IMG/VR virus record: IMGVR_UViG_3300020042_011666
Location: 47,941-111,940 of that record
Strand: one strand, 5' to 3'
Origin: a virus
DNA length: 64,000 nt
The translations under genes were made by a program, and so were the position numbers. Positions 212 to 31,524 of the stretch are shown in pieces; the first letter of the stretch is position 1, and every line of letters starts with the position of its first letter. Under the pieces are notes generated by a model. The model was not told the origin of the DNA and made no database searches. It saw only the letters and a list, made by a program, of their open reading frames with translations.

Positions 212-231
212 GCATATACATATATCACCTC

Positions 232-749: not shown

Positions 750-758
750 AACTTTTAT

Positions 759-788: not shown

Positions 789-809
789 GGATAACTTTTT
801 AGGATTTAA

Positions 810-15079: not shown

Positions 15080-16011
15080 ATTACTTGTTTCTTAGAAATT
15101 ACTGATAAGATTTGGGAGATACAGGACATTATATTAATTTCTTTATCTACCCTAAATCCTGCTTGATATTGCATTTCGGATAAAGTAATAATTATTTCAC
15201 CTTCTCTACCACTAGCATACTCATTTATTTCTTCAAATAAAAATCTAAATAAATCATCATAATCATTTACTCCTGAATTAGCAATTATTTGTCTAATTTG
15301 GGTGAATGATGTTTGGGTAGGTTTCTTTAAAATATTAAGTACTTGACTTTGATAAGTATTAGATACTAATAATGTAGAATCAAGTTTTAATGTATTATCA
15401 ATAGTAGATGATTGACATACATTAAGTGTTTTACGCAAATCAGGATAATATTTGTTAATAATAACAACTAGATCCTTAATGTCATAGTTAATTCCTTCAC
15501 TATCTAAAACCGAGGCAACGTGGCGAGCGGAATCTGATTTGTTAGGGGGTATAATTTTTAAAACATGACATCGTGATTGGAGGGGATCAATAATACGTTC
15601 AACATAATTACAAGTTAAAATAAATCTTGTAGTACGTGAAAACGTTTCAATTATATTCCTTAAGGATGCTTGTGCTTGAATTGTTAAAAAATCAGCCTCA
15701 TCTAATATAATCACTTTAAGTGGTTTAAATGAGGCTGTGCTAGCAAATGATTGTACTTTATCTCTAATTGTATCAATACCTCTTTCATCACTAGCATTAA
15801 TATATAGGTAGTCACAATCAATTTTAGATACAATAAGTTTAGCTAGTGTAGTTTTACCTGTACCTGCAGGGCCATAGAAGATAAAGTTTTGGATATCGTT
15901 TTGGTCTAAGTATTGTTGGATAATAGCTTTAACACTTTCATTACCAACATAATTAGCTAATTCACTTGGACGATATTTTTCAACTAATAAAGTATGTTCT
16001 CGTTTATTCAT
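15076..16011 (-). CDS. clamp loader AAA+ ATPase subunit (RFC / T4 gp44-like)
   Basis: [33 protein letters not shown]. Confidence 0.95.
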
Positions 16012-19668: not shown

Positions 19669-19699
19669 ATAATATACGAATAAAATTTTAATTATCCAA
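19669..19699 (-). promoter_or_regulatory. Bacteroidota sigma-A-type promoter
   Basis: TTG-N20-TATATTAT. Confidence 0.65.
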
Positions 19700-22355
19700 A
19701 TTTAAAAAATCTGTGTACATTACGATTAAATATGGGTTGTCCCCAACCAATGTCTTTATATAATGTTTCTAATTTATTTTTCATAACGCCATCAAAGATT
19801 CCATCTCTGTCTATATAGGTGTTAATAAATTCAATTATTTCTGGAGGATCATCGTAACCATTAAAACCAATAACATCAATTTTGTATGGGTTATTCTTTA
19901 AATAAGCAAGAAACATTTTATCTCCTACCTGAAATAATGAATTGGTTTTGTCTAGTTTTTTAAAGCGAAGGAAATCATTGTAAAATATAGCTGCTTTAGT
20001 GTTAATAGGACATTTTAATTTTAATTTAGAGAATATTTCACCAGCTCTAGGACCTCGCTCAGTATACTCTTTTAATTGCTTTAATCCAGTAGGTTTTAAG
20101 ATTTTTGTCCACTCAATAGTTTGTAATGATTCTCTAAAATCAAGTACTTGAGAGTCAATACTTGGCTTAGATTTACCAAACATAATCTCATTAATAATGT
20201 GTTCACCAAACTTTTTAAATAATGGAGGGAAATTTGATTTCATCAAATCCAATCCCTTAACATCTAGTTCATCTGTTGGGACACCTTCTTTATTAACAAT
20301 GTGTTGGGCGTATCTACGTTTACCAGCAAAATAACCTCTATCTAATACAACCTCTTGTTTTAATTCAAAATAGTGTTGTGTATCATCTCCTAAATTAAAA
20401 GCATCTCTAGCAAATTCACCTATAAACTTATTTGCCATTGCTTGTAATTCAGTAGCAATTACTAATATTTTTTTAATTACATCCTCTTGATTAGTAAAAT
20501 CAATATCCGGATGTCTTGCTTTTAATAAGTCTTTGCACTGGATAAAAAGTGAATCTGTATCACTTGTAACAATATAGTCTACGGGTGTTTCGTTATTTAA
20601 TTCATTATTTAAATAGTCATTCATATTAGTAATACTTTCTTGTAACAAACGTTGACCTGTTAAAGTAATCGCCTTACTAATAAATTTATTGCCATCTGTG
20701 TATCTCCAACCATTAATAGCAAATACACCATAAACGTCATTTAATTTAATTTTATACGCGTGTTGGCGCCTATCATAAAAGGATCCCATAACCGGGTCAT
20801 TATCTTCCTTATATGCTTTTTTCATCAACCTTTTATATTCTTGACGTTTAGCAAACCAGTCAGATAAAATTTCACATACAACACTTGATTTGTCTTTACG
20901 GAACATTACTCCGGGTGCTGATATGACTAGGTTATTTTTTTCAATAATATTAATTAAGTCTTTTATTTTGGTTTGTGATAATGCTATTGTTCTATCTTTT
21001 TTAATTTTTTCAATATTAACCACTCGTTCAGGATCCATCTGCTTTAATTCCTTTAATGACCATTGGTTGTCAAATTTACCATTGTGAACAACTCGGCCAA
21101 CTAAAGTTTCAATACCCATGTTTAATGAGCGAATAATAGATGGATATAGTGATGTAAAATCTAGGTCAATAATCCATTCATATAAACCCGGTATTGGGTC
21201 TTTTAAATAACCACCAGCATACTCGGCTAAAGATACAATATCATCGTATTCCTCTTTAGTAATTTCTTTTTTCTTATATAGGCCCTCAGCATTTTTAACA
21301 CTAATATCTTTTAATGCGGGGTTATAAGTAGTTGGTTTATTTGGTGAGACTATACCTTTACGTTTTAAGTATGTTAAAATAGCACCTTCATTCAGCATTG
21401 TTGAATAATAAATCTGCTCATATTCTGTATGGCAAAGGTGGCAGATTGTAACTGTTAATTCAACAAATTTAAGTTGGTTTTCTAGTTCAACTATAATTTC
21501 AACATCTCGAATGTTATACTCAATAAATTTATCTATATCTTCGTTAAATAATTTATCAAGTGAACCTTGATATTCTATTTTTTCTAACTTAGCATATTTT
21601 CTACCTATTTCCCCTAATTTATAAGACGGCTCTTGTTTAGTAATGTATTTTTTAAACAACAACATATAGTCAAGGTGATTAATACCTGCTAAGTTAACGG
21701 GTTGTTCGGGAAATTGGGGTGTAAATGTTATTTTTCCTAGTGGAGATAGGTAGTTAGCTGTATCCTCTCCTAATACTTTACATATTCTATAATACAAGTA
21801 AGGTATATCGAAGAATCCACTATTCCATCCTGTAATAATAGTAGGATCTAATTCAATCCATTTATCAAGGAAACCGTGTAATAATTCTTTTTCAGATATA
21901 AAGGGAATAATTTGCTTTTTATCGCTATTAATCTCATCCATTTTACTTTCTTTATCCAAGATAAAACAAAAGTATTTTTGAGAATTATTATCATATAAAG
22001 CAATAGCTGTTATTTCACCTTTAGGATTTTTAATGTTTTCAGGTGTTAATGCCCCCGCAATAACACACTCAATATCTAGATAAACAATGTTATTAAATGA
22101 GGGAGTATCATCCGTTTCATAATACATGTCTACTAGTAATCTAGTTTCTTTACTAACATCTTTTTCATACAATCCATTATCACTCCAATCTGCTTTTTTA
22201 GTTGGTGATACACGAGTACCTTCTAGTGTTTCGTATTCACCATCTGGATCAGCAAAGTAATAAGTGGGGTGGTACTTAAAAGATTTCCACCCCATTTTAT
22301 CATCTCGTAAATAATATTGTTTTTCTCCTCGGTCGTAATAGACGGATTGGTACAT
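19692..22355 (-). CDS. DNA polymerase family B (T4 gp43-like)
   Basis: Exo motifs LDIE, GWNSGFFD, YNIRD; polymerase motifs DFTSLYPSII, KIKLNDVYG, SDTDS, KRRY. Confidence 0.97.
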   Translation of the reverse strand: MYQSVYYDRGEKQYYLRDDKMGWKSFKYHPTYYFADPDGEYETLEGTRVSPTKKADWSDNGLYEKDVSKETRLLVDMYYETDDTPSFNNIVYLDIECVIAGALTPENIKNPKGEITAIALYDNNSQKYFCFILDKESKMDEINSDKKQIIPFISEKELLHGFLDKWIELDPTIITGWNSGFFDIPYLYYRICKVLGEDTANYLSPLGKITFTPQFPEQPVNLAGINHLDYMLLFKKYITKQEPSYKLGEIGRKYAKLEKIEYQGSLDKLFNEDIDKFIEYNIRDVEIIVELENQLKFVELTVTICHLCHTEYEQIYYSTMLNEGAILTYLKRKGIVSPNKPTTYNPALKDISVKNAEGLYKKKEITKEEYDDIVSLAEYAGGYLKDPIPGLYEWIIDLDFTSLYPSIIRSLNMGIETLVGRVVHNGKFDNQWSLKELKQMDPERVVNIEKIKKDRTIALSQTKIKDLINIIEKNNLVISAPGVMFRKDKSSVVCEILSDWFAKRQEYKRLMKKAYKEDNDPVMGSFYDRRQHAYKIKLNDVYGVFAINGWRYTDGNKFISKAITLTGQRLLQESITNMNDYLNNELNNETPVDYIVTSDTDSLFIQCKDLLKARHPDIDFTNQEDVIKKILVIATELQAMANKFIGEFARDAFNLGDDTQHYFELKQEVVLDRGYFAGKRRYAQHIVNKEGVPTDELDVKGLDLMKSNFPPLFKKFGEHIINEIMFGKSKPSIDSQVLDFRESLQTIEWTKILKPTGLKQLKEYTERGPRAGEIFSKLKLKCPINTKAAIFYNDFLRFKKLDKTNSLFQVGDKMFLAYLKNNPYKIDVIGFNGYDDPPEIIEFINTYIDRDGIFDGVMKNKLETLYKDIGWGQPIFNRNVHRFFKFG

Positions 22356-22858
22356 TATTTTCTTTGTTTATCGTTTTGCCACTGGCCGTTATATAGCTGT
22401 TCTGATGCCACAGGTTCACATTCATGGAAATACACTTGTGCTACTCGAGCATCTTGTTCAATGAATATAGTTTCAAGCACAACCATGTAAGTACCAATAT
22501 TAGGTGTTACGAATCCGGGATCAAAAATGCTTGATGTAATAATAGCACCGTTTCTCATTAAAGATGAACGTTGACGAATTAAAGCAACTCGGTTTGATGG
22601 GATATTACATCCCTCATTCATAATTACATCATAAACACCAGCATATAACAACCAACCATCTCTCCAATCCATGTTTGATTTTTCAACAGGAGTATGAGTA
22701 TTAAGTTCGGTTTTGTCAACTAAAACTTTACCAATTGAGCCTCCTACCTTATTAATTTCTTTAACAGATAAATCATAACCTACTTGAGCTGGTTTTCCTT
22801 TAGCATTATCTAAATTAAGTAAACCCTGCTCTAATAATTGTTCAGCATTTAAAATCAT
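22355..22858 (-). CDS. trimeric dUTPase / dCTP deaminase family protein
   Basis: GYDL, RSSLMRNG, FDPGF, RVAQ, YNGQWQ. Confidence 0.85.
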   Translation of the reverse strand: MILNAEQLLEQGLLNLDNAKGKPAQVGYDLSVKEINKVGGSIGKVLVDKTELNTHTPVEKSNMDWRDGWLLYAGVYDVIMNEGCNIPSNRVALIRQRSSLMRNGAIITSSIFDPGFVTPNIGTYMVVLETIFIEQDARVAQVYFHECEPVASEQLYNGQWQNDKQRK

Positions 22859-23553
22859 ATCCTGTGTCCTCCGTTGTTAATTTTTAAGCTGTCAAAGAAT
22901 TCTTTGCGTGCTTGATTTTCGTTATCCATAAACACACCTGATGCTTTGGTAGTAACCATAGATGCTCCTTGATGTTTTACACCCCTACAAGAAACACAGT
23001 TGTGGGTTGCAACTATAGTTACAATAACACCTCTGTTATGTTCACAAATTTTATCTACTGCCTGATGGATAGCGGATGTTAATTGTTCTTGAATAGCACC
23101 TCTACGTCCAAAATGTTCTATAATACGATTTAATTTAGATAAACCAATTACTGAGCCATTTTCACCTACAATGTAACCAACATGAACTACACCTCCAATT
23201 GTTTGGTGGTGATGAGAACACATTGAAGTAAGTGGAATGTTACGTTCAATAACAATTCCATCATATCCGTCACTTGGAAATGAGGTAATTTCACTCATAG
23301 CCTCGTAACGACCTTTCCACAAATCAAATACATAAGCTTTAGCTACACGACGCGGTGTATCCGAACTATTAGGATCATTTTTCCAATCACATCCTAAAGC
23401 ATCTAAAAATTTACCATAAGCTTCAGCAGCCTCATCTACCATTGACCATTTTTCCTTTTCGGTAAATGGGAAACCAGGAGCGATACCATTTGCATAACCA
23501 GTTTTTACACACTCTAAATCGAGTGTAAATGTTTTTTTATTATCTTCTACCAT
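22855..23553 (-). CDS. folE: GTP cyclohydrolase I
   Basis: DTPRRVAK, SMCSHH, IGLSKLNR, QEQLT, HNCVSCRGV. Confidence 0.95.
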   Translation of the reverse strand: MVEDNKKTFTLDLECVKTGYANGIAPGFPFTEKEKWSMVDEAAEAYGKFLDALGCDWKNDPNSSDTPRRVAKAYVFDLWKGRYEAMSEITSFPSDGYDGIVIERNIPLTSMCSHHHQTIGGVVHVGYIVGENGSVIGLSKLNRIIEHFGRRGAIQEQLTSAIHQAVDKICEHNRGVIVTIVATHNCVSCRGVKHQGASMVTTKASGVFMDNENQARKEFFDSLKINNGGHRI

Positions 23554-23559
23554 ATTAAC

Positions 23560-24078
23560 TTATTTTACAAAAACGTAGGGTATGTTACGATATAAACCAT
23601 TATCGTCCATCCCATATCCACATAACCAATTATTATCCTCAATATACAAAGAAGAATATAGTTTTCCAAATCTATTTTCAAACTTAATACCCTCTCTTGT
23701 AAACAAAGTTACAATGTTTATACTTAAAGGTTTTTTAGCTAGAAAATGATTCAATAAAAATTTCATAGTATTTCCTGAATCTAGTATATCATCAATCAGG
23801 AATATATTTTTTTCCTCAACATCTAATTCGATGTCTTTAGTTACAACGGGTTTAACTTGTGATTGGTTAGTAACATAAGATTTAGTTCTAACAAAATCAC
23901 ATTCAATAGGAAAACTAATTTGTTTAACTAAATCAGTATAAAACATAAAACCACCGGTTAATACACCTACAAACACATTATTTTCGCCCCAATATTCGGT
24001 GGTTGTGTTTAGCTCAAAAGCAACTGTTTTTACAGCATCTTGAATTTGTTGTTCATTAAATAAAATTTTCGTATTCAT
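23560..24078 (-). CDS. hpt: hypoxanthine/guanine phosphoribosyltransferase-like
   Basis: GVLTGGFMFYTDL, KSY loop, PRPP motif LIDDILDSGNT, GYGMD...YRNIP. Confidence 0.85.
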   Translation of the reverse strand: MNTKILFNEQQIQDAVKTVAFELNTTTEYWGENNVFVGVLTGGFMFYTDLVKQISFPIECDFVRTKSYVTNQSQVKPVVTKDIELDVEEKNIFLIDDILDSGNTMKFLLNHFLAKKPLSINIVTLFTREGIKFENRFGKLYSSLYIEDNNWLCGYGMDDNGLYRNIPYVFVK

Positions 24079-24349
24079 TAATTAATTTACTAAAACCTGT
24101 ATATTTTTTTATAACTTTTCCGTTTTTAATTTCTAAAACTGTTGGATAATATTCTATACCCATTTCCTCATTTAAATAAGGATCTTCATTACTAATATTA
24201 TATAATGGAGCTTTTGAATCAGCAAATGCTTTTTCTAAAACAGGGGTAATTGTAGCACAATGTCTACAAGTGTCTGAGGAGAAAAAAACATAAAAATGGT
24301 TTTCAAAGATAAGATAAGAATCAAACTGTTCTGAGGTAATGTGTTTCAT
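24056..24349 (-). CDS. thioredoxin-like protein
   Basis: CRHC active site, cis-Pro YYPT, KNGK. Confidence 0.8.
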   Translation of the reverse strand: MKHITSEQFDSYLIFENHFYVFFSSDTCRHCATITPVLEKAFADSKAPLYNISNEDPYLNEEMGIEYYPTVLEIKNGKVIKKYTGFSKLINEYENFI

Positions 24350-24361
24350 ATTGTATAAATA

Positions 24362-24565
24362 TCACTTTTTAATTTGTTGCTTTAATTTTTCAGCATACAC
24401 GATACCATCCATTAGTTCCTCTTGGAAATGGTTTAACCAATCCCAAAATTCTAAGTCATTACGGTCCATAGTTACACCGTATTTTTCTTTTCCCATTTTT
24501 GCTCTGTTAGCAAATTTGTCAATAACCGCTTGTACAACCAAATCTGGTTGAAAGTTTTCGCTCAT
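24362..24565 (-). CDS. small all-alpha protein, possibly MazG-like NTP pyrophosphohydrolase
   Basis: GKEKYG...WLNHFQEELMDGIVY (EExxD acidic motif). Confidence 0.5.
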   Translation of the reverse strand: MSENFQPDLVVQAVIDKFANRAKMGKEKYGVTMDRNDLEFWDWLNHFQEELMDGIVYAEKLKQQIKK

Positions 24566-24568
24566 AAA

Positions 24569-25141
24569 TTATTTAATTAAATATTTTGTATAATCGCTTT
24601 GTGTAGGTACAATATTAGGGAAATAATATACTTCTTTTTTAGCACCAATCCAAATAGTTTTATAAAAACCATCTGGTATAGTTGCACCTGTAGGTAGTTT
24701 TTGTGAACGAGGAGAATAAACCATCCTAATTTCAACTTTAACGGTTGCTGTTTTAGCTAAATCTCGCTCGTGTATTTCTAGTATTCTCCAAACACCTCTA
24801 TTTAATTTTTCGTGTTGCAAAACACAATTTACATAAGAGAATGTTTTATATAACATTTCCTTAGTACAATTAAAATCAGCAGCAGGGGCACAATGTCCTT
24901 TATCCCAAACATTAGCAACATAATCGTTAGCATCAGATGTAATAACACCAGGGAAAGAATAAAAATCCATTCCTGTACGAGGAGCAGTACCTGTAGGACA
25001 CAAAACAGTATACCATACTCGTTTAGGTTGTTGTAAGATTTCTGAGTAGACTGCTTCGTAAATGTCTGTTTTAACATAAACTGAATCGCGTTGAGCGAAT
25101 AGAGATAATGGGAGTAAAAATAGTAATAATATAGAACGCAT
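24569..25141 (-). CDS. DNA/RNA non-specific endonuclease (NucA/EndA family) with signal peptide
   Basis: Signal MRSILLLFLLPLSLFA-Q; DKGH, PAAD, QHEKLNRGVW, IPDGFYK. Confidence 0.9.
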   Translation of the reverse strand: MRSILLLFLLPLSLFAQRDSVYVKTDIYEAVYSEILQQPKRVWYTVLCPTGTAPRTGMDFYSFPGVITSDANDYVANVWDKGHCAPAADFNCTKEMLYKTFSYVNCVLQHEKLNRGVWRILEIHERDLAKTATVKVEIRMVYSPRSQKLPTGATIPDGFYKTIWIGAKKEVYYFPNIVPTQSDYTKYLIK

Positions 25142-25156
25142 ATTAATAAATATTAA

Positions 25157-25453
25157 TTATTTGGTTCTTGATTTTTCCATATGCTCCCAAAGTGATTCGT
25201 GACTGTAGCAGATTGGATTCTTATTTTCATCCCAAGCTCCTACTTCTTTGCTTCCAAAGTCTCTTTCATAACAGTACCAAGAAAACCAGTCATAACCTTC
25301 TTCCCCGTAGATTTCTTTTAGCAGTTCTCCGATAATAACACCGTAAGGATCAGTCCAATCTATCAAATCTATTTTCAAATCATAGAGAGCAGATACTGCT
25401 TTGTCTTGCTTTTCTATAGCTGTAATTACTTTTAAAAAATTTTCGTATGTCAT
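25157..25453 (-). CDS. hypothetical protein
   Basis: ORF track; loosely similar layout to 3399..3794 (YGEE..W/F.Y, E.LW). Confidence 0.6.
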   Translation of the reverse strand: MTYENFLKVITAIEKQDKAVSALYDLKIDLIDWTDPYGVIIGELLKEIYGEEGYDWFSWYCYERDFGSKEVGAWDENKNPICYSHESLWEHMEKSRTK

Positions 25454-25455
25454 AA

Positions 25456-25698
25456 TTAGTTACTAGTAAGTCTATTAATTTCTTTTAAGTAATCTCTAAT
25501 TTCAGCAGCATTCTCGTAATCTTCTACTTCAGGTAAGATTGCATACTCCATCATACCGTGGAGTAATGCTTTAAAGTCTCCTTTGTGCTTTGAATCTAAA
25601 TGATTCTGTAGCCAGATTTTTTGTTCAAATGGAATGTTTGAATTGTAAATTTCCGGATGCATTTTATCCTTGTATAGAAGTCGAGTGCTGTAGTCCAT
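25456..25698 (-). CDS. hypothetical protein with UVR motif
   Basis: EVEDYENAAEIRDYL is a close UVR (UvrB/C, ClpC M-domain) match. Confidence 0.65.
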   Translation of the reverse strand: MDYSTRLLYKDKMHPEIYNSNIPFEQKIWLQNHLDSKHKGDFKALLHGMMEYAILPEVEDYENAAEIRDYLKEINRLTSN

Positions 25699-26489
25699 TA
25701 AACAGCTCTCTTAGTATCGTAACTAATAATGTGGTCTCTGCCGGTCCAATTGTAACCTACCTTCATAGCTATTTCAATAGATTTTGGATATATTTCAATT
25801 AATGTTTCTCTAGTATCCCCAGCAGGCATCAACCAAGTTTTATTCTTAGGAATATTCATTTCCTGTCTGAATATTTCAATTTCACCTAAACACTCTATTG
25901 TACCATCCCAAACTGGTTTGTAATGATAATCAGTATGATAATCTAAAGTTTTACGAATTGCATCATAATTTAAACGTAGTTTGTTGTGTTGATCAATCAT
26001 TTTTTGATCAACGAGTTTACCCATTGGAGTGGTAACGTTAAGAGCAGGAACAGAATTACTAAACTTTGGAGATAAAGATACCAACCCAAACGGATAATCG
26101 GTTTCAACATAGTGGCTACCTTCTGTTTCAATGGTTATACATATACCACGTTCGTGAGCAAAATGAGTAAGTTCATTACAAAGGTCGGGTTGCATTGTTG
26201 GTGAACCTCCAGTTAACATCATTTCTGTGATTCCAGGATCTTGATCATAAATCTTAACAATGTCATTAAACGTATAGATACCTTTTTCTGGATGGATACT
26301 TGTGTACCAAGAATCACACCATCCACCTTCACCAAACCAGCATCTGTGAGTACAGCCTGTTGTTCTAATTGCTATTGTAGGACGTCCTTGTCTTGAACCT
26401 TCTGATTGTATACAACGGTAAATCTCAAGTACAGGTAATTTTTTGTTATAGTCGAGAATACGACCTGGTTTTTTATATTCTTTTTCCAT
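25698..26489 (-). CDS. queE: 7-carboxy-7-deazaguanine synthase (radical SAM)
   Basis: IQSEG..GRP...RTTGC-x3-C-x7-CDS, LTGGSP, IETEG, SLSPK. Confidence 0.9.
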   Translation of the reverse strand: MEKEYKKPGRILDYNKKLPVLEIYRCIQSEGSRQGRPTIAIRTTGCTHRCWFGEGGWCDSWYTSIHPEKGIYTFNDIVKIYDQDPGITEMMLTGGSPTMQPDLCNELTHFAHERGICITIETEGSHYVETDYPFGLVSLSPKFSNSVPALNVTTPMGKLVDQKMIDQHNKLRLNYDAIRKTLDYHTDYHYKPVWDGTIECLGEIEIFRQEMNIPKNKTWLMPAGDTRETLIEIYPKSIEIAMKVGYNWTGRDHIISYDTKRAV

Positions 26490-26491
26490 TA

Positions 26492-26956
26492 TTATCCTTT
26501 GTAAAGGGCACTATTTTTTCCATGTTCCATAAACTCAACTTGAGCTACTCTAACGCGCCCATTAGTTTCTTCGTTAATAAAAACATTAAGTTTTTCATAT
26601 ACAAATTTAGCAAATTGCTCAGCACCAACGGCTGGTATTACTCGTACCTGAGCTAGTCCATGATCGCCCATAGCTTTCCATCCAGCTAGGTATGGGTCAT
26701 CTTCAGCCACAATTAAAGTGTGGTCAAACATATAGTCCATCCATTCTTTAGGGTTCATATCATCGATAGTTCCTTTAGCGCGTTTCATGCCTCCAAAATC
26801 CCAAACCCAATTACGTTCATCAAGTTCACCTTCGAACCATACTTTAAAACTTACTCCATAGCCATGAAGGAATCTACAATGTGTACCTTCTGCTTTCCAT
26901 TGACGAAATACGCAACTAAATCCGTCAAAAACTTTTGTTGATATATGTTTACTCAT
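26492..26956 (-). CDS. queD: 6-carboxytetrahydropterin synthase
   Basis: HCRFLHGY, WDFG, FDH, GAEQFA, EHGKNSA. Confidence 0.9.
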   Translation of the reverse strand: MSKHISTKVFDGFSCVFRQWKAEGTHCRFLHGYGVSFKVWFEGELDERNWVWDFGGMKRAKGTIDDMNPKEWMDYMFDHTLIVAEDDPYLAGWKAMGDHGLAQVRVIPAVGAEQFAKFVYEKLNVFINEETNGRVRVAQVEFMEHGKNSALYKG

Positions 26957-26957
26957 A

Positions 26958-27200
26958 TTATTTATAAAAATTTATAATCTCATTTAATGATTTAACTCCT
27001 GTAAATCTACGAACTTCTTTTCCGTTCTCCACAAGAATTACTGTAGGAACACTTCTTATTTCAAAATCTGTTGTATACTGTTTTTGAGTATCAACATCTA
27101 CTTTTATTACTGGTACTTGTTTACCTACTTGTTCCATGATGGGGGATAGGGTTTTGCATGGTTGACACCAGGCTGCGGAGAAATATATTAAGCTTTTCAT
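26958..27200 (-). CDS. trxA: thioredoxin
   Basis: FSAAWCQPCK, VDVD, IRSVPT. Confidence 0.9.
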   Translation of the reverse strand: MKSLIYFSAAWCQPCKTLSPIMEQVGKQVPVIKVDVDTQKQYTTDFEIRSVPTVILVENGKEVRRFTGVKSLNEIINFYK

Positions 27201-27352
27201 ACTAGTTCCTCATAAATACCAATAGTCTCACTAAAGATTAAAGTAATAGCTGCTACCTCAATATCAAAAAATAAAAAAGCATATCCTAAGATACGAATAG
27301 CGGATTTAATAAAACTAATTTGTTGGTGTTTTTTAGGATTAGGATGGTTCAT
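27197..27352 (-). CDS. small membrane protein (51 aa, not in ORF track)
   Basis: MNHPNPKKHQQISFIKSAIRILGYAFLFFDIEVAAITLIFSETIGIYEELV*; ATGA overlaps at both ends. Confidence 0.65.
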   Translation of the reverse strand: MNHPNPKKHQQISFIKSAIRILGYAFLFFDIEVAAITLIFSETIGIYEELV

Positions 27353-27543
27353 AGTTCTATAATTTCAGTTTTAGGGTAATGTTCTAAGATTCGTGATGTA
27401 TGTTCTTTATATAAAACCTTAGCTTCTTTCCAATTGTGTGACCAAAATAGGGAACCATACATCATTCCGATGTATGCTTCCCCTTCTTGGTTCACAATAA
27501 TATATTCTTTACGTTCAAATGTTGGTCGTTTTGGCGTCCTCAT
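27349..27543 (-). CDS. hypothetical protein
   Basis: ORF track. Confidence 0.55.
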   Translation of the reverse strand: MRTPKRPTFERKEYIIVNQEGEAYIGMMYGSLFWSHNWKEAKVLYKEHTSRILEHYPKTEIIEL

Positions 27544-28387
27544 AATTTTCTAAAACCGAAGATACGAACTCTTTTACATATTCCCAAGTTACAGGGCCAA
27601 ATTCATCAGCATATTGAACTGGATCTTTTCTTCCCAATTTAATAAATGCCTCTACTCGCTCAACACTTGATGCTGATTTGTAATCTGAAAACCATTCTTC
27701 TGATGGGTTGCCATAGCTGTCAAAAACAACATGAACCATAGGCTTATATGATGTGTTTGTTTTAGCGTATACCTTATCAAAATTTAAGTGAAGATAAGTA
27801 CAGCACTTTTCACCATCTTTTAAAATACCAGCCTTATCATCACTAAGATAAGGAGTATAATACTGGACACGATCAGCACCCCAGTTACCAGCACAAAAAG
27901 CAGCGTAATCAATATCTCGAAACTCCTGGCGGCAGTCCGGATAAATTGCATGATCCCCTGCATGGATACCCATTGCGATTTTAACTTCTGTATTTTTTTC
28001 ATCTGCGATACTTAATGCTACTGCTTGAATAATTGAACTAAATATTTTATTACGATTAGGGACAACTGTTGCTTTCATATTATTTTCAGCATAGTGTCCT
28101 TCAGGAACATCATCTCCACCTTTTACTAAGGCTGAATTAAGTAATTTGTCTAACCCTTTTAATGTAATTGTTTGATGTTTTACTTTAGCATAGTATTGTT
28201 CATCCTCATAACGAGAATGGTTGTTTAAATACTTTACTAATTCTTTAGCACGTTCTAATTCAATGTTGTGTTTTTGACCGTAATCAAAGGATAGTGCTGT
28301 AACTTCGTAGCCATCGGCAAGTAGACGTAGTAACAGTGTCGAGGAATCCATTCCCCCAGATAAGCTAAGCACTGCTTGTTTATTCAT
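27515..28387 (-). CDS. queC: 7-cyano-7-deazaguanine synthase-like (lacking Zn cysteines)
   Basis: LSGGMDS PP-loop, FDYGQKH, VPNRN, YPDCR; C-terminal Cys cluster replaced. Confidence 0.9.
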   Translation of the reverse strand: MNKQAVLSLSGGMDSSTLLLRLLADGYEVTALSFDYGQKHNIELERAKELVKYLNNHSRYEDEQYYAKVKHQTITLKGLDKLLNSALVKGGDDVPEGHYAENNMKATVVPNRNKIFSSIIQAVALSIADEKNTEVKIAMGIHAGDHAIYPDCRQEFRDIDYAAFCAGNWGADRVQYYTPYLSDDKAGILKDGEKCCTYLHLNFDKVYAKTNTSYKPMVHVVFDSYGNPSEEWFSDYKSASSVERVEAFIKLGRKDPVQYADEFGPVTWEYVKEFVSSVLENYEDAKTTNI

Positions 28388-28521
28388 AGTTTTGTTTTGT
28401 TTGCTAATTTACGTAATTTTTCTAAATTATTCAAGTTCATTCGAAAACGATTTTCCCAAATAGCATCTAGTACTTTTTTAATTTCCGCCTCCCAAGCGGG
28501 ATTAATATCTATTTTTTCCAT
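28384..28521 (-). CDS. small hypothetical protein (45 aa, not in ORF track)
   Basis: MEKIDINPAWEAEIKKVLDAIWENRFRMNLNNLEKLRKLANKTKL*; ATGA overlap with queC. Confidence 0.55.
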   Translation of the reverse strand: MEKIDINPAWEAEIKKVLDAIWENRFRMNLNNLEKLRKLANKTKL

Positions 28522-28524
28522 AAT

Positions 28525-28767
28525 TTAAAAAGGTAAGTCGTCTGGTTCATTGTAAAGGATTTCTGTAGAAGATGTTGTTCCCTTATTAAAATAATCATCT
28601 AGCCAACTTTCAGGATACATCTGGATTGGTCCAGAGTATATAGAGTTACTTACTTCTTTGGTTTTAATTGGAATTTCGTCATGTTGAGCTGCTGTGCTTA
28701 CTTGCATTCCTAATTCTCTACCTGCTGGTTTCTTTAGGTAGTCGTAAAGTGATAGAAATTTTTCCAT
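28525..28767 (-). CDS. hypothetical protein with SSB-like DDLPF tail
   Basis: Start reassigned to MEKFLS (promoter covers the longer start); ends EPDDLPF. Confidence 0.65.
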   Translation of the reverse strand: MEKFLSLYDYLKKPAGRELGMQVSTAAQHDEIPIKTKEVSNSIYSGPIQMYPESWLDDYFNKGTTSSTEILYNEPDDLPF

Positions 28768-28771
28768 AACT

Positions 28772-28802
28772 ATAACATACAAAAGATTTTTTAATCCTCC
28801 AA
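28772..28802 (-). promoter_or_regulatory. Bacteroidota sigma-A-type promoter upstream of the queC operon
   Basis: TTG-N20-TATGTTAT. Confidence 0.65.
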
Positions 28803-28803
28803 C

Positions 28804-29601
28804 TTAAAATTTATTAAGTTTATTAAAATATTCTAGGTTATATGTTAATAATTGGTAATCGATTTTTTCGGGTTCAATGTACATTACATCATCAATTCGA
28901 GTTTTAGGTTTAGTAATCAAACCATATTCTTTGTATTTAGTACCCTCAATAGTTGCAATGATAGGATTTGAGGTATCAATTGTATCTACAAATGTAAATC
29001 CTTGATAGTATAAAAATTCTTGAGGTAAGCAACATCCTAATAAGTGGATCTTATCACCTTGAGAAATTATTTTTACATTGTGGAAATGAGTAATAATAGA
29101 AATTCTACCTAACATTTTAGCCATATCTACATTAGGGTGTTTTACGTACTTAGCATAAAACGTTAATCCATATGGAAATGCAATCTTTTTATATCCTGAG
29201 AGTTTGTATGATTCATAACAACGGATTAAATCGTGCAATCCTAAACCTTGAACAACTGCTACTCTCATTACCTCCTCAGGCCAATCTTTCATATGAATCC
29301 ATTTTTCGGCATTAGCAATAGATAAATTAGCATTTTCCCAAACATCAGGAACAATAAATTCATTGGGTTTAAGTTCATTAATCCAATATATTAATCTTTC
29401 CCAATCATATGCCTCACCTAATTCATGGAGCGAGTTGTCCATAATAATGTAACGGCCTTCTTCTTTAGCACGACGGAAGTAATTCTCATACTCCGGTTCC
29501 TTGTCTAATAAATGAGGCAAACAGTAATCATAATCATTAAACTGCTTACTATCTTCGAGCAAGCATAATGGGGTTTCGTGTGATTTCTTAATAAACGACA
29601 T
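28804..29601 (-). CDS. TGT-fold guanine transglycosylase-like protein (DpdA-like 7-deazaguanine insertion enzyme)
   Basis: Ordered TGT barrel motifs IMDNS, VPDV, VVQG, IHLLG, IDTSNP; no C-terminal TGT Zn site; next to queC/D/E; start reassigned to MSFIKK. Confidence 0.7.
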   Translation of the reverse strand: MSFIKKSHETPLCLLEDSKQFNDYDYCLPHLLDKEPEYENYFRRAKEEGRYIIMDNSLHELGEAYDWERLIYWINELKPNEFIVPDVWENANLSIANAEKWIHMKDWPEEVMRVAVVQGLGLHDLIRCYESYKLSGYKKIAFPYGLTFYAKYVKHPNVDMAKMLGRISIITHFHNVKIISQGDKIHLLGCCLPQEFLYYQGFTFVDTIDTSNPIIATIEGTKYKEYGLITKPKTRIDDVMYIEPEKIDYQLLTYNLEYFNKLNKF

Positions 29602-29614
29602 ATTATCTTCTACA

Positions 29615-29645
29615 TAAATATACAAAAGAGGGCTTGTAAAACCAA
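29615..29645 (-). promoter_or_regulatory. Bacteroidota sigma-A-type promoter overlapping a terminator
   Basis: TTG-N20-TATATTTA. Confidence 0.65.
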
Positions 29646-29656
29646 GCCCTTCTTTT
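29624..29656 (-). terminator. intrinsic terminator after nrdJ
   Basis: Perfect stem AGGGCTTG/CAAGCCCT, 6-nt loop, T-rich flanks. Confidence 0.75.
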
Positions 29657-29670
29657 ATTTTTTGATTAAT

Positions 29671-31524
29671 TTAAATTATTTCGCACGCACCTCCGGCACA
29701 AGCTGCTTGGTCCATCAATGCTGTATTGTCACTAATTTCAACTACTTTTGACAAGTCTAACAAATGAAGTGGTTTAATAGCCTCGTTAAATTGTTCTTCA
29801 GTAATGGTTTCGAAAGGAGCTTGAACATAAGTACCTAAGTCCTCAGGTAAGAATGATAATGCTGTAAAGTATTCTTTATTGTCATATAGCCAATCTCCAA
29901 CCCCAGCCCATTCATCTTTTTTAATAGTTACTGTAGCTGATACATTATGCATGTTATTTCCTTTTCTATGGCCTGGTTTAATCCAATTTTTATTAATTGT
30001 TTTAATACGCTCTAATAAATCCATAGCTGATTCACTACGCGTAATTGAACCTTCTGGAGAACGCTGAGGAATAGATAATACTGATTGTAATGTAGGTTTA
30101 AATACATCATCCTCTAGCATTTCAGGGTGGTAAACAGATAAGTATGAGTATAACGCCTCATTTTTGCCTAAACGGATTCGACGCATGTAAAAATCATCGT
30201 GCCAAGCATGGATACCTGAGCTAGTACCTAGTACTAATGATGTAGTACCTGAAGGTTTAACTGTAGTTACACGAGCTGCTTTGTTAATACCTAAAATAGC
30301 TGCTACTCTTTCATTTTCATCACAAGCGGCTTTAGCTGCTTCTTTCATATTTAATTTAAATACAGCACCTGAGGCAATACCTGTCATTCCAATACCTAAT
30401 AATGCTTCTTTTTCGGTTGTTTTTTTCCAAATATCTCTTAAGTAATGGAAATCAGTATAAGAGGCTTGTAGTGTACCAATAAAAGCTGCTGCTTTAGATC
30501 GTGCATTGTATTCCTCTTGTGTTTCAATGTCTGAAGCATTAATTTCACATAGGTTACAGAATTGATTAGCTTTTAAATTAATTTCAGCACAAGGGTTTGT
30601 TCCAGCATCTTTATCGTTTGTAAACAAGAAACCAGGTTCACCACTATTAGAGGCCTCAATTTTTTTCCACAGTCCGAAGAATGTGTCTTTATCAATTTTG
30701 TTACGAAGCAACACTGCTGAGTTATTAGAACGACCACGTTGTGGGTTATGTTCCCACCAGTTGCCAAATTTGCAAGTTAGCATATCCTCATCGTGTAAAT
30801 TAAACAATGCGATCAAAGCCGCCCTACGAATACCTCCGGACAACACAGCATCAGCTAAGTGACAAATAATGTCGTGACATTCTAAAGTTGTTAATCTTTC
30901 ACCATCGTTTTTACGGTCTAAAATCGCTTGCATATGTACTAAAGCAATTTTCAATGGCTCAGGACCTGGTGCTTTACCTCCAACTGTAATTAATGATGCA
31001 CCTTTAGGGCGGATATCACGGAAGTCAAATAATGGGGCGGTTGTGGTGTAACCAAAATAAGCTTTAGTTAACATACGAACAGCATCAGCCCATCCTTCAA
31101 TAGAATCACCTACTAAATAACGCTTTGATTTTAAAGGTTTTCTAATTTCGGGTAATTGCTCAACGTGGTGAGTTTGTACTGAGTATCCTACTCCACAACC
31201 TGAAAGCAATAGGAACATAATTTCAGAGAATGCCCTGTGGTCATCAATTGGTAAGTAAGAGCAGTTAAAGATACGAGAGTTGTTAATGGAAATAGGTTTA
31301 CCTGCAAATTGCATTGAGCGCATTGAAGGTAATACTTTTTTCTCATATACATACTTGTATGCAGCTTCAATTTCTTCAGCTAAATTTGGAAATTTATCCA
31401 AATGCATTGTTTTATTGCGTGTAACGAGTTCTTCCCATGTTTCACGTCGATTTTTTTCAGGGACGTATTTGGCGTATTTAAGGTACACGGTTACATCCGA
31501 CAAGATATTTTGTTCGATATTCAT
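29671..31524 (-). CDS. nrdJ: class II adenosylcobalamin-dependent ribonucleotide reductase (monomeric RTPR type)
   Basis: RETWEE, LPSMR, FNC, GGIRRAA, GTNPCAEI, TVKPSGT, C-terminal ACAGGACE; no small subunit gene. Confidence 0.9.
   Translation of the reverse strand: MNIEQNILSDVTVYLKYAKYVPEKNRRETWEELVTRNKTMHLDKFPNLAEEIEAAYKYVYEKKVLPSMRSMQFAGKPISINNSRIFNCSYLPIDDHRAFSEIMFLLLSGCGVGYSVQTHHVEQLPEIRKPLKSKRYLVGDSIEGWADAVRMLTKAYFGYTTTAPLFDFRDIRPKGASLITVGGKAPGPEPLKIALVHMQAILDRKNDGERLTTLECHDIICHLADAVLSGGIRRAALIALFNLHDEDMLTCKFGNWWEHNPQRGRSNNSAVLLRNKIDKDTFFGLWKKIEASNSGEPGFLFTNDKDAGTNPCAEINLKANQFCNLCEINASDIETQEEYNARSKAAAFIGTLQASYTDFHYLRDIWKKTTEKEALLGIGMTGIASGAVFKLNMKEAAKAACDENERVAAILGINKAARVTTVKPSGTTSLVLGTSSGIHAWHDDFYMRRIRLGKNEALYSYLSVYHPEMLEDDVFKPTLQSVLSIPQRSPEGSITRSESAMDLLERIKTINKNWIKPGHRKGNNMHNVSATVTIKKDEWAGVGDWLYDNKEYFTALSFLPEDLGTYVQAPFETITEEQFNEAIKPLHLLDLSKVVEISDNTALMDQAACAGGACEII

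What the first reader, a model, noticed from the sequence alone, without database searches (positions are those of the whole stretch)
22355..31524. 7-deazaguanine DNA-modification cluster with its own HPRT, between PolB and a class II RNR: possible nucleotide-level route or guanine-recycling loop
Seen: folE, queD, queE, queC and a TGT-fold protein (28804..29601) are interleaved with an HPRT-like gene directly upstream of folE, a small EExxD all-alpha protein, a dUTPase-family gene and two thioredoxins. No queF or amidotransferase (ArcS/GAT) is visible in the window. Established: FolE-QueD-QueE-QueC converts GTP to CDG and then preQ0; phage DpdA-family transglycosylases place 7-deazaguanines in DNA to block restriction; HPRT joins purine bases to PRPP. 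Inference: the HPRT is the unusual member. Model A: it activates the free deazaguanine base to a ribonucleotide, NrdJ reduces it and PolB incorporates it while dGTP is depleted (pre-replicative, possibly near-complete G replacement). Model B: it salvages guanine released by the transglycosylase back to GTP for FolE. The predicted base is preQ0 or ADG.
Basis: partly seen in the sequence, partly recalled or inferred. Interest (0 to 1): 0.82.

Follow-up and report, generated by a model that had tools for sequence, protein, structure and literature searches.

The report
Guanine-salvage enzyme inside phage deazaguanine cluster
An uncultured phage of a Flavobacterium-like host carries the known DpdA3 gene set for swapping the G in its DNA for a 7-deazaguanine, and the purine-salvage enzyme embedded in it is a conserved but so far unremarked part of such clusters that most likely recycles the ejected guanine rather than building a modified nucleotide.

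Summary
On the minus strand of window 19692-31524 lie, in transcription order, a class II (RTPR-like) RNR, a DpdA3-type transglycosylase, QueC, thioredoxin, QueD, QueE, a non-specific nuclease, thioredoxin, an Hpt-type HPRT, FolE, a dUTPase/dCTP-deaminase-like gene and PolB. No QueF, ArcS or GATase was found.

The HPRT is not a stray gene. I found 84 distinct viral PRTases of this kind, and 81 sit in que/dpd loci. 56 of the 63 with FolE in reach lie directly beside it. All 37 DpdA3-centred loci that reach FolE carry a PRTase.

The slot holds either an Hpt-type or a Gpt-type PRTase. In Queuovirinae-like phages a Gpt-like domain is fused to FolE itself.

The purine-contacting and catalytic residues of the window enzyme are canonical, and no nucleotide kinase lies in the cluster. 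The nucleotide-level route (model A, about 0.15) is not excluded.

The predicted base is dPreQ0, probably replacing all G.

The papers searched do not link a purine PRTase with DpdA. This scan has already reached the same reading on at least nine other genomes.

The 112-kb contig is a join of two related phages. Its "second HPRT" belongs to the other phage.

The parts
29671..31524 (-). Class II, monomeric RTPR-like ribonucleotide reductase (617 aa)
   Evidence: TIGR02505 2.7e-77 (260 bits, below the equivalog cut-off of 340); PF02867 and PF21995. Relatives carry either this or a class I RNR at the same place.
28804..29625 (-). DpdA3-family guanine transglycosylase (273 aa from the TTG; the likely start is the ATG at 29601)
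   Evidence: tblastn: immuto DpdA 36% (4e-47), CP220 gp056 35% (1e-33), phiST CGPG_00065 27% (9e-5). phrog_19058 7.7e-37. AF2 pLDDT 92.9 and a TGT fold. Invariant D63, D94, HLLG194-197 and DTS217-219 in 15 homologues.
28525..28782 (-). p85, a small conserved protein of unknown function
   Evidence: Family present in 51 related loci between DpdA3 and QueC. No Pfam hit.
27515..28387 (-). QueC (290 aa, long form without the usual C-terminal Cys cluster)
   Evidence: PF06508 3.5e-37. The PDB QueC alignment covers only residues 3-180. 65% identical over residues 3-284 to the QueC of phage immuto.
27349..27543 (-). p64, a small protein of unknown function
   Evidence: Family in 31 related loci. No Pfam hit.
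27197..27352 (-). p51, a small hydrophobic protein
   Evidence: Family in 88 related loci, always between QueC and Trx/QueD.
26958..27200 (-). Thioredoxin (80 aa, WCQPC)
   Evidence: PF00085 7e-19. The thioredoxin family occurs in 108 related loci.
26492..26956 (-). QueD (6-carboxytetrahydropterin synthase)
   Evidence: PF01242 2.4e-14; TIGR03367.
25698..26489 (-). QueE (radical-SAM CDG synthase)
   Evidence: TIGR03365 1.3e-14 and other QueE models. 66-83% identical to homologues in related loci.
25456..25698 (-). p80, a small protein with a UVR-like motif
   Evidence: PF02151 1.6e-4, marginal. 94% identical to its counterpart in the other phage on the contig.
25157..25453 (-). p98, a conserved small protein of unknown function
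   Evidence: phrog_28377 1.5e-5. No Pfam or NCBIfam hit.
24569..25141 (-). DNA/RNA non-specific endonuclease
   Evidence: PF01223 1.4e-18; phrog_14168 'nuclease'.
   Evidence: Five PHROGs of unknown function. No Pfam or PDB match at E<=5.
24056..24349 (-). Thioredoxin-like protein (97 aa, CRHC); overlaps the HPRT start by 23 nt
   Evidence: PF00085 1.5e-10.
23560..24078 (-). Hpt-type 6-oxopurine phosphoribosyltransferase (172 aa), virus-only clade
   Evidence: TIGR01203 1.6e-37 (128.8 bits, cut-off 150). 59 PDB HPRT/HGPRT sequences, best 4e-30. Motifs DDILDSGNTM, VTLFTR, WLCGYGMD and YRNIP. At most 34% identical to the cellular HPRTs compared, and 40-42% to most other viral ones.
22855..23553 (-). 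FolE (GTP cyclohydrolase I); its start lies 6 nt after the HPRT stop
   Evidence: PF01227 4.5e-43; TIGR00063 8e-43.
22355..22858 (-). Trimeric dUTPase/dCTP-deaminase-superfamily protein, probably a dUTPase
   Evidence: NF002598 6e-24; PF22769; PF00692. PDB 9W59 'probable dUTPase' 9e-15. The same slot holds a MazG/PRA-PH-like NTP pyrophosphatase in 56 related loci.
19692..22355 (-). Family B DNA polymerase
   Evidence: PF00136 2.6e-32; PF03104 5e-19.

Best explanation
The region is the DNA-hypermodification and nucleotide-supply module of a large uncultured phage related to Flavobacterium and Cellulophaga phages.

Proposed pathway:
- FolE, QueD, QueE and QueC convert GTP into preQ0.
- The DpdA3-family transglycosylase exchanges preQ0 for guanine in phage DNA, probably at every G, as in the cultured DpdA3 phages.
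- Each exchange frees one guanine, and each preQ0 costs one GTP.
- The Hpt-type phosphoribosyltransferase encoded directly before FolE acts as an ordinary guanine/hypoxanthine PRTase. It joins the freed guanine to PRPP to give GMP.
- Host kinases raise GMP to GTP, which re-enters FolE.

This loop removes a poorly soluble competitor of DpdA3 and closes the purine budget of the pathway. The thioredoxins and the RTPR-type RNR, the dUTPase-like enzyme, the nuclease and PolB are the usual replication and nucleotide genes around it.

Shown here: gene identities, the TGT fold, the conserved linkage of the PRTase to FolE, and the intact canonical PRTase motifs.
Inferred: the substrates, the base (dPreQ0), the completeness of replacement and the recycling loop.
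For: (1) Linkage around the PRTase. A motif scan of IMG/VR with the HPRT alignment gave 63 loci, nearly all with QueE upstream and FolE directly downstream. Over both scans there are 84 distinct PRTase sequences. 81 have que/dpd genes in the flank. 63 have FolE in reach, and 56 of those have no ORF in between.

(2) Linkage seen from DpdA3. At least 573 viral loci encode a relative of this DpdA3. Of the best 80, 37 reach FolE. 36 of these showed a PRTase, and the 37th (L092) has a Gpt-like one that my ORF caller had masked.

(3) Two families fill the slot. It holds either an Hpt-type (75) or a Gpt/XGPRT-type (9) enzyme. The guanine-type phosphoribosyl transfer for which both families are named is the shared activity.

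(4) Cultured phages (for the search).
- Phage immuto, where fdPreQ1 replaces G (PMC10516641), has an annotated phosphoribosyltransferase between QueE and FolE.
- Brevundimonas phage MaInes has FolE followed by a xanthine PRTase.
- The PA5oct-group Pseudomonas phage MIJ3 has gpt next to queE.
- In VpKK5 and a Stenotrophomonas phage, which I read through, the 'GTP cyclohydrolase I' gene is a fusion. It has an intact Gpt-like domain (RGGVP, DDIIDSGxTM, KP, WVVFPWE) followed by FolE. In 11 more annotated records (Vibrio, Sphingomonas, Stenotrophomonas, Pseudomonas) the match also lies under that gene.
Fusion and adjacency therefore tie the PRTase to the pathway's entry step.

(5) Canonical residues. 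The catalytic and N7-contacting Asp of DDIxD, the Lys/Arg at the O6 site, the stacking Trp/Phe, GYGxD and YRNxP are kept in the viral sequences aligned.

(6) No dedicated kinase. No NMP or NDP kinase was found among the ORFs scanned in and around the cluster. The families conserved in related loci also include none.

(7) DpdA3 is present in 110 related loci.

(8) Base prediction. QueC is 65% identical over its full length to immuto QueC, which must make preQ0 for that phage's QueF. There is no QueF, ArcS or GATase in the contig. A 93%-complete relative (G004) has no QueF either.

(9) Scale (my estimate). About 150 kb at 33% GC gives about 50,000 G per genome. A burst of 50 would free millions of guanines, which is millimolar in a 1-fL cell.
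Against: - No enzyme was assayed, and substrate specificity cannot be read from sequence.
- The HPRT scores below the NCBIfam equivalog cut-off and is at most 34% identical to the cellular HPRTs compared, so altered specificity is possible.
- GMP is two kinase steps away from FolE's substrate GTP, so adjacency or fusion does not mean direct channelling.
- Campylobacter phage CP220 replaces all G with a DpdA3 but encodes no PRTase, so the enzyme is not essential for complete replacement.
- DpdA3 activity has never been reconstituted, and ADG nucleoside was seen in CP220-infected cells (PMC10516641). The post-replicative premise is therefore itself unproven.
- The Gpt-type enzymes of sister clusters belong to the same PRTase family as 4Z1O. 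That is the structure TubE, a proven CDG-PRPP transferase, was aligned with.
Confidence: 0.6

Rival explanations
1. Nucleotide-level route. The PRTase joins a 7-deazaguanine base (CDG or preQ0) to PRPP, as TubE does and ToyH is proposed to do. Kinases and the RTPR-type RNR then make the deoxynucleoside triphosphate, and PolB incorporates it. DpdA3 would only mop up remaining G, or would itself act on nucleotides.
For: - TubE is a proven CDG-PRPP phosphoribosyltransferase encoded with FolE, QueD and QueE homologues (PMC6112128).
- DpdA3 phages reach 100% replacement, DpdA3 has not been reconstituted, and ADG nucleoside was found in CP220-infected cells (PMC10516641).
- The slot after FolE always holds a dNTP pyrophosphatase, either dUTPase-like or MazG-like.
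- In CP220 and immuto a P-loop kinase-like gene lies next to DpdA3 or DpdN.
- The Gpt-type PRTases of sister clusters match 4Z1O at 3.5e-16.
- The viral Hpt clade is very diverged from cellular HPRTs.
Against: - The window enzyme is Hpt-type. 4Z1O, 4TRB and 1VDM are absent from its PDB hits at E<=1e-5.
- The Asp that contacts purine N7 is kept in the viral sequences aligned. It would face a C7 substituent.
- No nucleotide kinase was found among the ORFs scanned, nor among the families conserved in related loci.
- The PRTase is linked or fused to FolE, the first step, not to QueC, the RNR or the polymerase.
- PRTase type does not track the final base. Both QueF-positive phages (G001, immuto) and QueF-negative ones (window, G004) carry a PRTase.
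- DpdA3 is retained in all clusters.
- The pyrophosphatases after FolE are most simply two forms of dUTPase (PMC10516641 on CGPG_00068).
Confidence: 0.15
2. General purine-salvage auxiliary gene. The PRTase simply raises GMP and IMP supply for replication and transcription, for example from host nucleic-acid breakdown or to escape host (p)ppGpp control of HPRT. It sits among nucleotide-metabolism genes with no specific tie to the base exchange.
For: - The cluster lies in a replication and nucleotide module with RNR, thioredoxins, dUTPase, nuclease and, in relatives, ThyA or ThyX.
- HPRT is a known (p)ppGpp target (PMC6783271, listed).
- The HPRT is the least conserved enzyme of the cluster: 33-47% identity against 66-83% for QueE.
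Against: - The association is with que genes specifically. 81 of 84 PRTases are in que/dpd loci, and 56 of 63 abut FolE.
- The cultured-phage hits I opened (immuto, MaInes, MIJ3, VpKK5, a Stenotrophomonas phage) all sit beside or inside que genes.
- Hpt-type hits in the phage collection outside this context are short, unannotated or host-like records.
- A PRT-FolE fusion protein exists.
Confidence: 0.15
3. The PRTase-fold protein is a sensor or regulator rather than a catalyst. Like PyrR among PRT-fold proteins, it would bind guanine, GMP or PRPP and tune FolE or expression of the cluster.
For: - There is a physical fusion to FolE in Queuovirinae-like phages.
- There are weak PyrR matches in NCBIfam and PDB.
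Against: - All catalytic motifs (PRPP loop, catalytic Asp, flexible-loop KSY, YRNxP) are intact across a deeply diverged clade. This argues for retained catalysis.
- The PyrR matches are far weaker than the HPRT ones.
Confidence: 0.05

Closest known systems
[quoted passage not shown] 2023, PMC10516641)
   Same: - A compact TGT-fold DpdA3.
- FolE, QueD and QueE (and QueC in immuto).
- A dNTP pyrophosphatase after FolE.
- Location beside the DNA polymerase.
- immuto also has a PRTase between QueE and FolE.
- These cultured phages replace all G.
   Different: - The window has no QueF or DpdN (immuto), no DpdL (phiST), and a full QueC, so dPreQ0 is expected rather than fdPreQ1, dDG or dADG.
- Its PRTase is Hpt-type rather than Gpt-type.
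- It uses PolB and an RTPR-type RNR.
- DpdA3 is only 27-36% identical.
- The 2023 paper does not mention a phosphoribosyltransferase (no occurrence of 'phosphoribosyl').
Classical bacterial and protozoan hypoxanthine-guanine phosphoribosyltransferases (Hpt; TIGR01203; PDB 4QRI, 1HGX, 1G9S, 1BZY)
   Same: - Full-length alignment (E down to 4e-30).
- The PRPP loop, the catalytic Asp, the O6 Lys/Arg, the stacking aromatic, GYGxD and YRNxP.
   Different: - A virus-only clade, at most 34-38% identical to the cellular enzymes compared.
- It scores below the equivalog cut-off.
- Its flexible loop is shorter.
- It is always encoded inside 7-deazaguanine clusters.
TubE (and the proposed ToyH) deazapurine phosphoribosyltransferases of tubercidin and toyocamycin biosynthesis (PMC6112128)
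   Same: A type I PRTase encoded together with FolE, QueD and QueE homologues. This is a precedent for PRPP-dependent activation of a 7-deazaguanine base.
   Different: - TubE was aligned by its authors with the Sulfolobus GpT-2 structure 4Z1O, a family the window enzyme does not hit.
- TubE clusters carry GMP reductase, a UbiD decarboxylase and a Nudix or HAD hydrolase, and no transglycosylase.
- I could not obtain TubE or ToyH sequences for a direct comparison.
PRT-FolE fusion proteins and FolE-adjacent Gpt genes of cultured phages (Vibrio phage VpKK5, Stenotrophomonas phage vB_SM_ytsc_ply2008005c, Brevundimonas phage MaInes, Pseudomonas phage MIJ3)
   Same: A guanine-type PRTase is physically tied to the first enzyme of the preQ0 pathway in a phage DNA-modification cluster.
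   Different: - Those enzymes are Gpt-type.
- VpKK5 and the Stenotrophomonas phage are fusions and lie in small siphophages. The transglycosylase next to FolE there is about 307 aa and annotated as queuine tRNA-ribosyltransferase. It did not match the window DpdA3.

Membership tests
DpdA3 subfamily of DNA guanine transglycosylases | Sequence homology to the founding members (phiST CGPG_00065, CP220 homologue, immuto DpdA) | tested here: met
   tblastn: immuto 36% over 94% of the query (4e-47), CP220 35% (4e-32), phiST 27% over 48% (9e-5). phrog_19058 7.7e-37.
DpdA3 subfamily of DNA guanine transglycosylases | TGT-like TIM-barrel fold | tested here: met
   AF2 model with pLDDT 92.9 and pTM 0.89. 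The top 50 Foldseek PDB hits are all tRNA-guanine transglycosylases (E about 1e-8, prob 1.0, TMq about 0.6).
DpdA3 subfamily of DNA guanine transglycosylases | Catalytic aspartates equivalent to those of TGT | tested here: inconclusive
   D63, D94 and D217 are invariant in 15 homologues. I did not map them residue by residue onto TGT Asp102 and Asp280.
DpdA3 subfamily of DNA guanine transglycosylases | Encoded with 7-deazaguanine synthesis genes | tested here: met
   FolE, QueD, QueE and QueC lie within 7 kb on the same strand. The same holds in 110 related loci.
DpdA3 subfamily of DNA guanine transglycosylases | Inserts a 7-deazaguanine into DNA, with complete replacement of G | not testable with these tools
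   Needs LC-MS of virion DNA. The activity has not been reconstituted even for the founding members (PMC10516641).
preQ0 synthesis pathway (FolE-QueD-QueE-QueC) | All four enzymes present | tested here: met
   PF01227 4.5e-43; PF01242 2.4e-14; QueE TIGRFAMs 1e-14; PF06508 3.5e-37. All are below the NCBIfam equivalog cut-offs, as expected for diverged phage versions.
preQ0 synthesis pathway (FolE-QueD-QueE-QueC) | QueC completes the nitrile (preQ0) rather than stopping at ADG | tested here: inconclusive
   The usual C-terminal Zn-Cys region does not align to solved QueC structures. The protein is 65% identical over its full length to immuto QueC, whose product must feed QueF. This is an inference from orthology only.
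Hypoxanthine(-guanine) phosphoribosyltransferase, Hpt (TIGR01203) | Scores above the curated equivalog cut-off | tested here: not met
   128.8 bits against a cut-off of 150. It is a family-level relative, not a certified equivalog.
Hypoxanthine(-guanine) phosphoribosyltransferase, Hpt (TIGR01203) | PRPP-binding loop and catalytic or purine-contacting residues | tested here: met
   DDILDSGNTM, VTLFTR (Arg at the O6 Lys position; Lys or Arg across the clade), WLCGYGMD and YRNIP, aligned to 4QRI, 1HGX and 24 cellular HPRTs.
Hypoxanthine(-guanine) phosphoribosyltransferase, Hpt (TIGR01203) | Uses guanine or hypoxanthine with PRPP | not testable with these tools
   Needs an enzyme assay.
TubE/ToyH-type deazapurine phosphoribosyltransferases | Belongs to the GpT/XGPRT-like PRTase family to which TubE was aligned (4Z1O) | tested here: not met
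   4Z1O, 4TRB, 1VDM and E. coli XGPRT are absent from the 59 PDB matches at E<=1e-5. By contrast the short PRTases of sister clusters match them. TubE and ToyH sequences themselves were not available.
TubE/ToyH-type deazapurine phosphoribosyltransferases | Accompanied by nucleotide-level tailoring enzymes (GMP reductase, decarboxylase, phosphatase or kinases) | tested here: not met
   None was found among the ORFs scanned or the conserved families of related loci.
TubE/ToyH-type deazapurine phosphoribosyltransferases | Accepts CDG or preQ0 with PRPP | not testable with these tools
   Needs an enzyme assay.

The most novel reading that the evidence does not exclude
The purine PRTases embedded in phage 7-deazaguanine clusters, or DpdA3 itself acting on mononucleotides, might create a pre-replicative pool of 7-deazaguanine nucleotides. 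The RNR would reduce these and the phage polymerase would incorporate them, with the neighbouring dNTP pyrophosphatase excluding dGTP. That would be a new, fourth kind of nucleotide-level whole-base replacement, alongside the hmC, dZ and dU/hmU systems. It would overturn the current view that all 7-deazaguanine DNA modification is post-replicative.
Probability: 0.15. Interest if true: 0.9.

Novelty: new variant of a known kind. Interest (0 to 1): 0.6.

Why it matters
How DpdA3 phages replace every G in a genome of about 150 kb is unresolved. The enzyme has never been reconstituted, and the purine bookkeeping has not been considered.

A purine PRTase is present in all 37 complete clusters of this DpdA3 clade that I examined, and it is fused to FolE in Queuovirinae-like phages. 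This gives a concrete, testable hypothesis: guanine removal and recycling is part of the modification machinery. It also suggests a missing factor for in vitro or E. coli reconstitution, namely co-expression of the PRTase, or an hpt+/gpt+ host with enough PRPP.

The finding also sharpens the decisive experiment between post-replicative and nucleotide-level routes. In addition it supplies a new marker gene for finding 7-deazaguanine phages in metagenomes.

Tried and rejected
- Second HPRT as a paralogue: rejected. A second HPRT at G000:25474-25959 (41% identical) at first looked like a paralogue. G000:1-47 kb is colinear at 90-96% nt identity with a complete 166-kb DTR genome (G001) that has a single HPRT. 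G000:49-100 kb is colinear with the same genome at only 65-74%.
- E-to-D, K-to-R and F-to-W differences as a specificity signature: rejected. Cellular HPRTs also have DD and sometimes W, and the viral clade varies between K and R.
- Hpt and Gpt as fully independent recruitments proving guanine as substrate: weakened. The Gpt-type family is the one nearest to TubE's structural relative 4Z1O.
- PRTase needed only for complete (DpdA3) replacement: rejected. Gpt-FolE fusions occur in Queuovirinae-like phages whose transglycosylase did not match the window DpdA3.
- p67 as MazG-like, and the dUTPase-like gene as a dGTPase: no support.
- Kinases: a search for thymidylate-kinase-like genes gave only a clamp-loader-like AAA+ ATPase at window 15076-16011.
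- Trees: the tree-building calls failed. I used pairwise identities instead.
- TubE and ToyH sequences could not be obtained. The supplement holds only a figure.
- Literature: searches for any paper linking HPRT or PRTase with DpdA found none.

Full report
**What is there**

All genes of window 16-36 kb are on the minus strand and tightly packed. Pfam, NCBIfam and PHROG scans give the following transcription order:

| Gene | Window coordinates |
|---|---|
| DnaB-like helicase | 31530-32903 |
| RTPR-like class II RNR | 29671-31524 |
| 273-aa protein without Pfam hit | 28804-29625 |
| p85 | 28525-28782 |
| QueC | 27515-28387 |
| two small ORFs (p64, p51) | 27197-27543 |
| thioredoxin | 26958-27200 |
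| QueD | 26492-26956 |
| QueE | 25698-26489 |
| p80, p98 | 25157-25698 |
| non-specific endonuclease | 24569-25141 |
| p67 | 24362-24565 |
| thioredoxin-like | 24056-24349 |
| HPRT | 23560-24078 |
| FolE | 22855-23553 |
| dUTPase/dCTP-deaminase-like | 22355-22858 |
| PolB | 19692-22355 |

Upstream lie a FEN-type exonuclease, a RecA/UvsX-like protein and a gp32-like protein.

**The TGT-fold protein is a DpdA3**

- It matches the annotated DNA guanine transglycosylase of Flavobacterium phage immuto (36%, 4e-47).
- It matches the CP220-group Campylobacter phage protein (35%) and, more weakly, phiST CGPG_00065.
- These are the founding members of DpdA3 in Hutinet/Cui et al. 2023 (PMC10516641).
- An AF2 model built on 15 homologues has pLDDT 92.9. 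Its best 50 PDB matches are all tRNA-guanine transglycosylases.

**The contig is a join of two phages**

The window is G000:47941-111940 of a 111,940-bp IMG/VR contig. About 20 genes occur twice, roughly 45 kb apart, at 39-94% protein identity. GC and tetranucleotide usage change along the contig.

Comparison with a complete 166,276-bp genome with terminal repeats (G001) settles the matter.
- G000:1-46.9 kb is colinear with G001:79.1 to 31.6 kb at 90-96% nt identity.
- G000:49-100 kb is colinear with G001:82.5 to 0.9 kb at only 65-74%.
- tRNA-Glu and tRNA-Met lie at the junction, whereas G001 keeps all its tRNAs at 98 kb.
- G001 has one HPRT.

The contig is thus an 'A-type' phage (PolA; QueF; immuto-like DpdA3 elsewhere) joined to a 'B-type' phage, and the whole window is B-type. 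A mis-assembly at tRNA genes is likely. The second HPRT is an orthologue in a different phage, not a paralogue.

**The HPRT is a core gene of the cluster**

- A motif scan of IMG/VR with an alignment of three HPRTs returned 63 loci. Nearly all have QueE upstream and FolE immediately downstream.
- A scan with a DpdA3 alignment found at least 573 viral loci, of which 80 were kept.
- 37 of those 80 reach FolE. 36 showed a PRTase next to it, and the remaining one (L092) also has one.
- After removing duplicates there are 84 distinct PRTases. 81 lie in que/dpd context. 63 have FolE in reach, and 56 of those are directly adjacent to it.
- The Hpt-type viral enzymes form their own group. Median identity is 42% among themselves and never above 38% to the cellular HPRTs compared.

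**Two PRTase families, and a fusion**

Nine loci, and phage immuto itself (annotated 'phosphoribosyltransferase' immuto26A_60 between QueE and FolE), carry a shorter enzyme in the same slot. Its profile matches archaeal purine PRTases and E. coli XGPRT (1VDM 2.6e-24, 4Z1O 3.5e-16, 1A95 3e-11; NCBIfam xanthine PRTase).

A tblastn search with the immuto enzyme against 50,697 phage records found 40 records.
- In VpKK5 and a Stenotrophomonas phage, which I read through, the match lies inside the gene annotated GTP cyclohydrolase I. These proteins are 297-300 aa. They have an N-terminal Gpt-like domain that keeps RGGVP, DDIIDSGxTM, KP and WVVFPWE, followed by PF01227 at residues 117-296.
- In 11 more annotated records (Vibrio, Sphingomonas, Stenotrophomonas and 42-kb Pseudomonas phages) the match also lies under that gene.
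- Brevundimonas phage MaInes has FolE directly followed by a xanthine PRTase.
- The PA5oct-group Pseudomonas phage MIJ3 has gpt directly before queE.
- phiST has a PRTase 17 kb from its cluster, and CP220 has none.

**Which model**

The PRTase is tied by adjacency and by fusion to FolE, the GTP-consuming first step. It is not tied to QueC, the RNR or the polymerase. It occurs with PolA or PolB, with class I or class II RNR, and with or without QueF. Its substrate is therefore unlikely to depend on the final base.

Both PRTase families are named for guanine-type phosphoribosyl transfer. In the window enzyme and the viral clade aligned with it, the catalytic Asp that contacts purine N7, the Lys/Arg at O6, the stacking Trp/Phe, GYGxD and YRNxP are all kept. 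No NMP or NDP kinase was found among the ORFs scanned or among the families conserved in related loci. The only 'thymidylate kinase' hint is a clamp-loader-like AAA+ protein. DpdA3 is present in 110 related loci.

The slot after FolE holds either a trimeric dUTPase-superfamily protein (27 loci, including the window) or a MazG/PRA-PH-like protein (56 loci). The latter is the kind that HHpred in PMC10516641 calls dUTPase or MazG. Two forms of dUTPase is the simplest reading, and there is no evidence for a dGTPase.

A rough estimate (inference): about 50,000 G per genome, times a burst of tens, frees millions of guanines per cell. That is millimolar for a sparingly soluble base that would compete with preQ0 at the transglycosylase. 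The same number of GTP molecules is consumed by FolE. A guanine PRTase closes this loop.

I therefore favour recycling at about 0.6, and keep the nucleotide-level route at about 0.15. Three facts keep the latter open. TubE shows that PRPP-dependent activation of CDG exists. The Gpt-type family is the one nearest to TubE's structural relative. DpdA3 has never been shown to work on DNA.

**Predicted base**

- QueC lacks the usual C-terminal Cys cluster in alignment to solved QueC structures.
- It is 65% identical over its full length to immuto QueC, which must supply preQ0 to that phage's QueF.
- The contig has no QueF, GATase_7 or ArcS.
- A 93%-complete B-like relative (G004) has no QueF.
- dPreQ0 is the best guess, and dADG remains possible. 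Complete replacement is expected by analogy with the three analysed DpdA3 phages.

**Novelty**

The cluster type is known. The purine PRTase as a conserved component, the Hpt/Gpt alternation and the PRT-FolE fusion are not mentioned in the two main papers. 'Phosphoribosyl' occurs zero times in PMC10516641 and in PMC6884629. No paper in the library links them.

The scan's own notebook shows that the same association was noted on at least nine other genomes. Four follow-up reports reached the recycling reading. These are unchecked AI notes, not independent evidence. I reached my reading before looking at them.

Noticed in passing
G000:1-47,400 versus window 1-64000 (junction at about G000:46,900-49,000, which is window 1-1,060): The 111,940-bp contig joins two related phages. 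The first 47 kb is 90-96% identical to a complete 166-kb DTR genome (G001). The rest, which is the whole window, is only 65-74% identical and repeats the same gene order. tRNA-Glu and tRNA-Met sit at the junction. An assembly chimera is likely.
   Followed up: yes
L161:4971-5864 (Stenotrophomonas phage vB_SM_ytsc_ply2008005c gp47); L162:4998-5900 (Vibrio phage VpKK5 gp32): The genes annotated 'GTP cyclohydrolase I' encode fusion proteins. An intact Gpt-like phosphoribosyltransferase domain (about 115 aa) precedes FolE. In 11 more annotated Vibrio, Sphingomonas, Stenotrophomonas and Pseudomonas phage records the match also lies under the FolE gene.
   Followed up: partly
L075:6843-7238 (immuto26A_60); L163:5001-5486 (Brevundimonas phage MaInes); L164:3995-4429 (Pseudomonas phage MIJ3 gpt): Cultured phages from three unrelated lineages carry a Gpt-type PRTase directly next to FolE or QueE.
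   Followed up: partly
L077:7874-10367 (CP220 gp055-gp057); L075:10481-11005 (immuto26A_68): In CP220 the DpdA3 is flanked by an HD-domain/P-loop protein and a 'thymidylate kinase'-like P-loop protein. In immuto a P-loop kinase-like gene (AAA_28) lies between DpdN and QueF. This recurrent nucleotide-handling company of DpdA3 is unexplained.
   Followed up: no
window 22355-22858 versus e.g. L009:9207-9839 and L017:9221-9802: The slot directly after FolE holds a trimeric dUTPase/dCTP-deaminase-like gene in 27 related loci and a MazG/PRA-PH-like NTP pyrophosphatase in 56. This looks like non-orthologous displacement.
   Followed up: partly
e.g. L017:1226-1744 and L026:3770-4297 (no counterpart in the window): A basic protein of about 172 aa with a C-terminal RRGRPPK (AT-hook-like) tail sits immediately upstream of DpdA3 in 81 related loci. 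It has no Pfam or NCBIfam hit. The window has the RNR there instead.
   Followed up: no
window 27197-27352 (p51): A tiny hydrophobic protein is conserved between QueC and Trx/QueD in 88 related loci. Its function is unknown.
   Followed up: no
window 24569-25141: A DNA/RNA non-specific endonuclease lies inside the modification cluster. It is 81% identical in the A-type phage but present in only 3 of 63 related loci. It might degrade unmodified host DNA.
   Followed up: no
G000:30455-31252 and G000:36048-36821; L004:12549-13244: A gene of about 230-265 aa occurs twice in the A-type part (77% identity). It appears at a different place, after PolB, in a relative. A separate, weakly I-TevI-like family (representative L008:2111-2788; PF20987, E 0.009) is likewise scattered through related loci.
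   Followed up: no
L004:5125-7171: A close relative (HPRT 85% identical) has a 4HBT thioesterase, an unknown ORF and a 415-aa ThyA inserted between QueE and p98.
   Followed up: partly
window 53843-63737: A run of about ten mutually related genes (24-60% identity) of 220-400 aa lies on the minus strand. This paralogous expansion was not examined.
   Followed up: no
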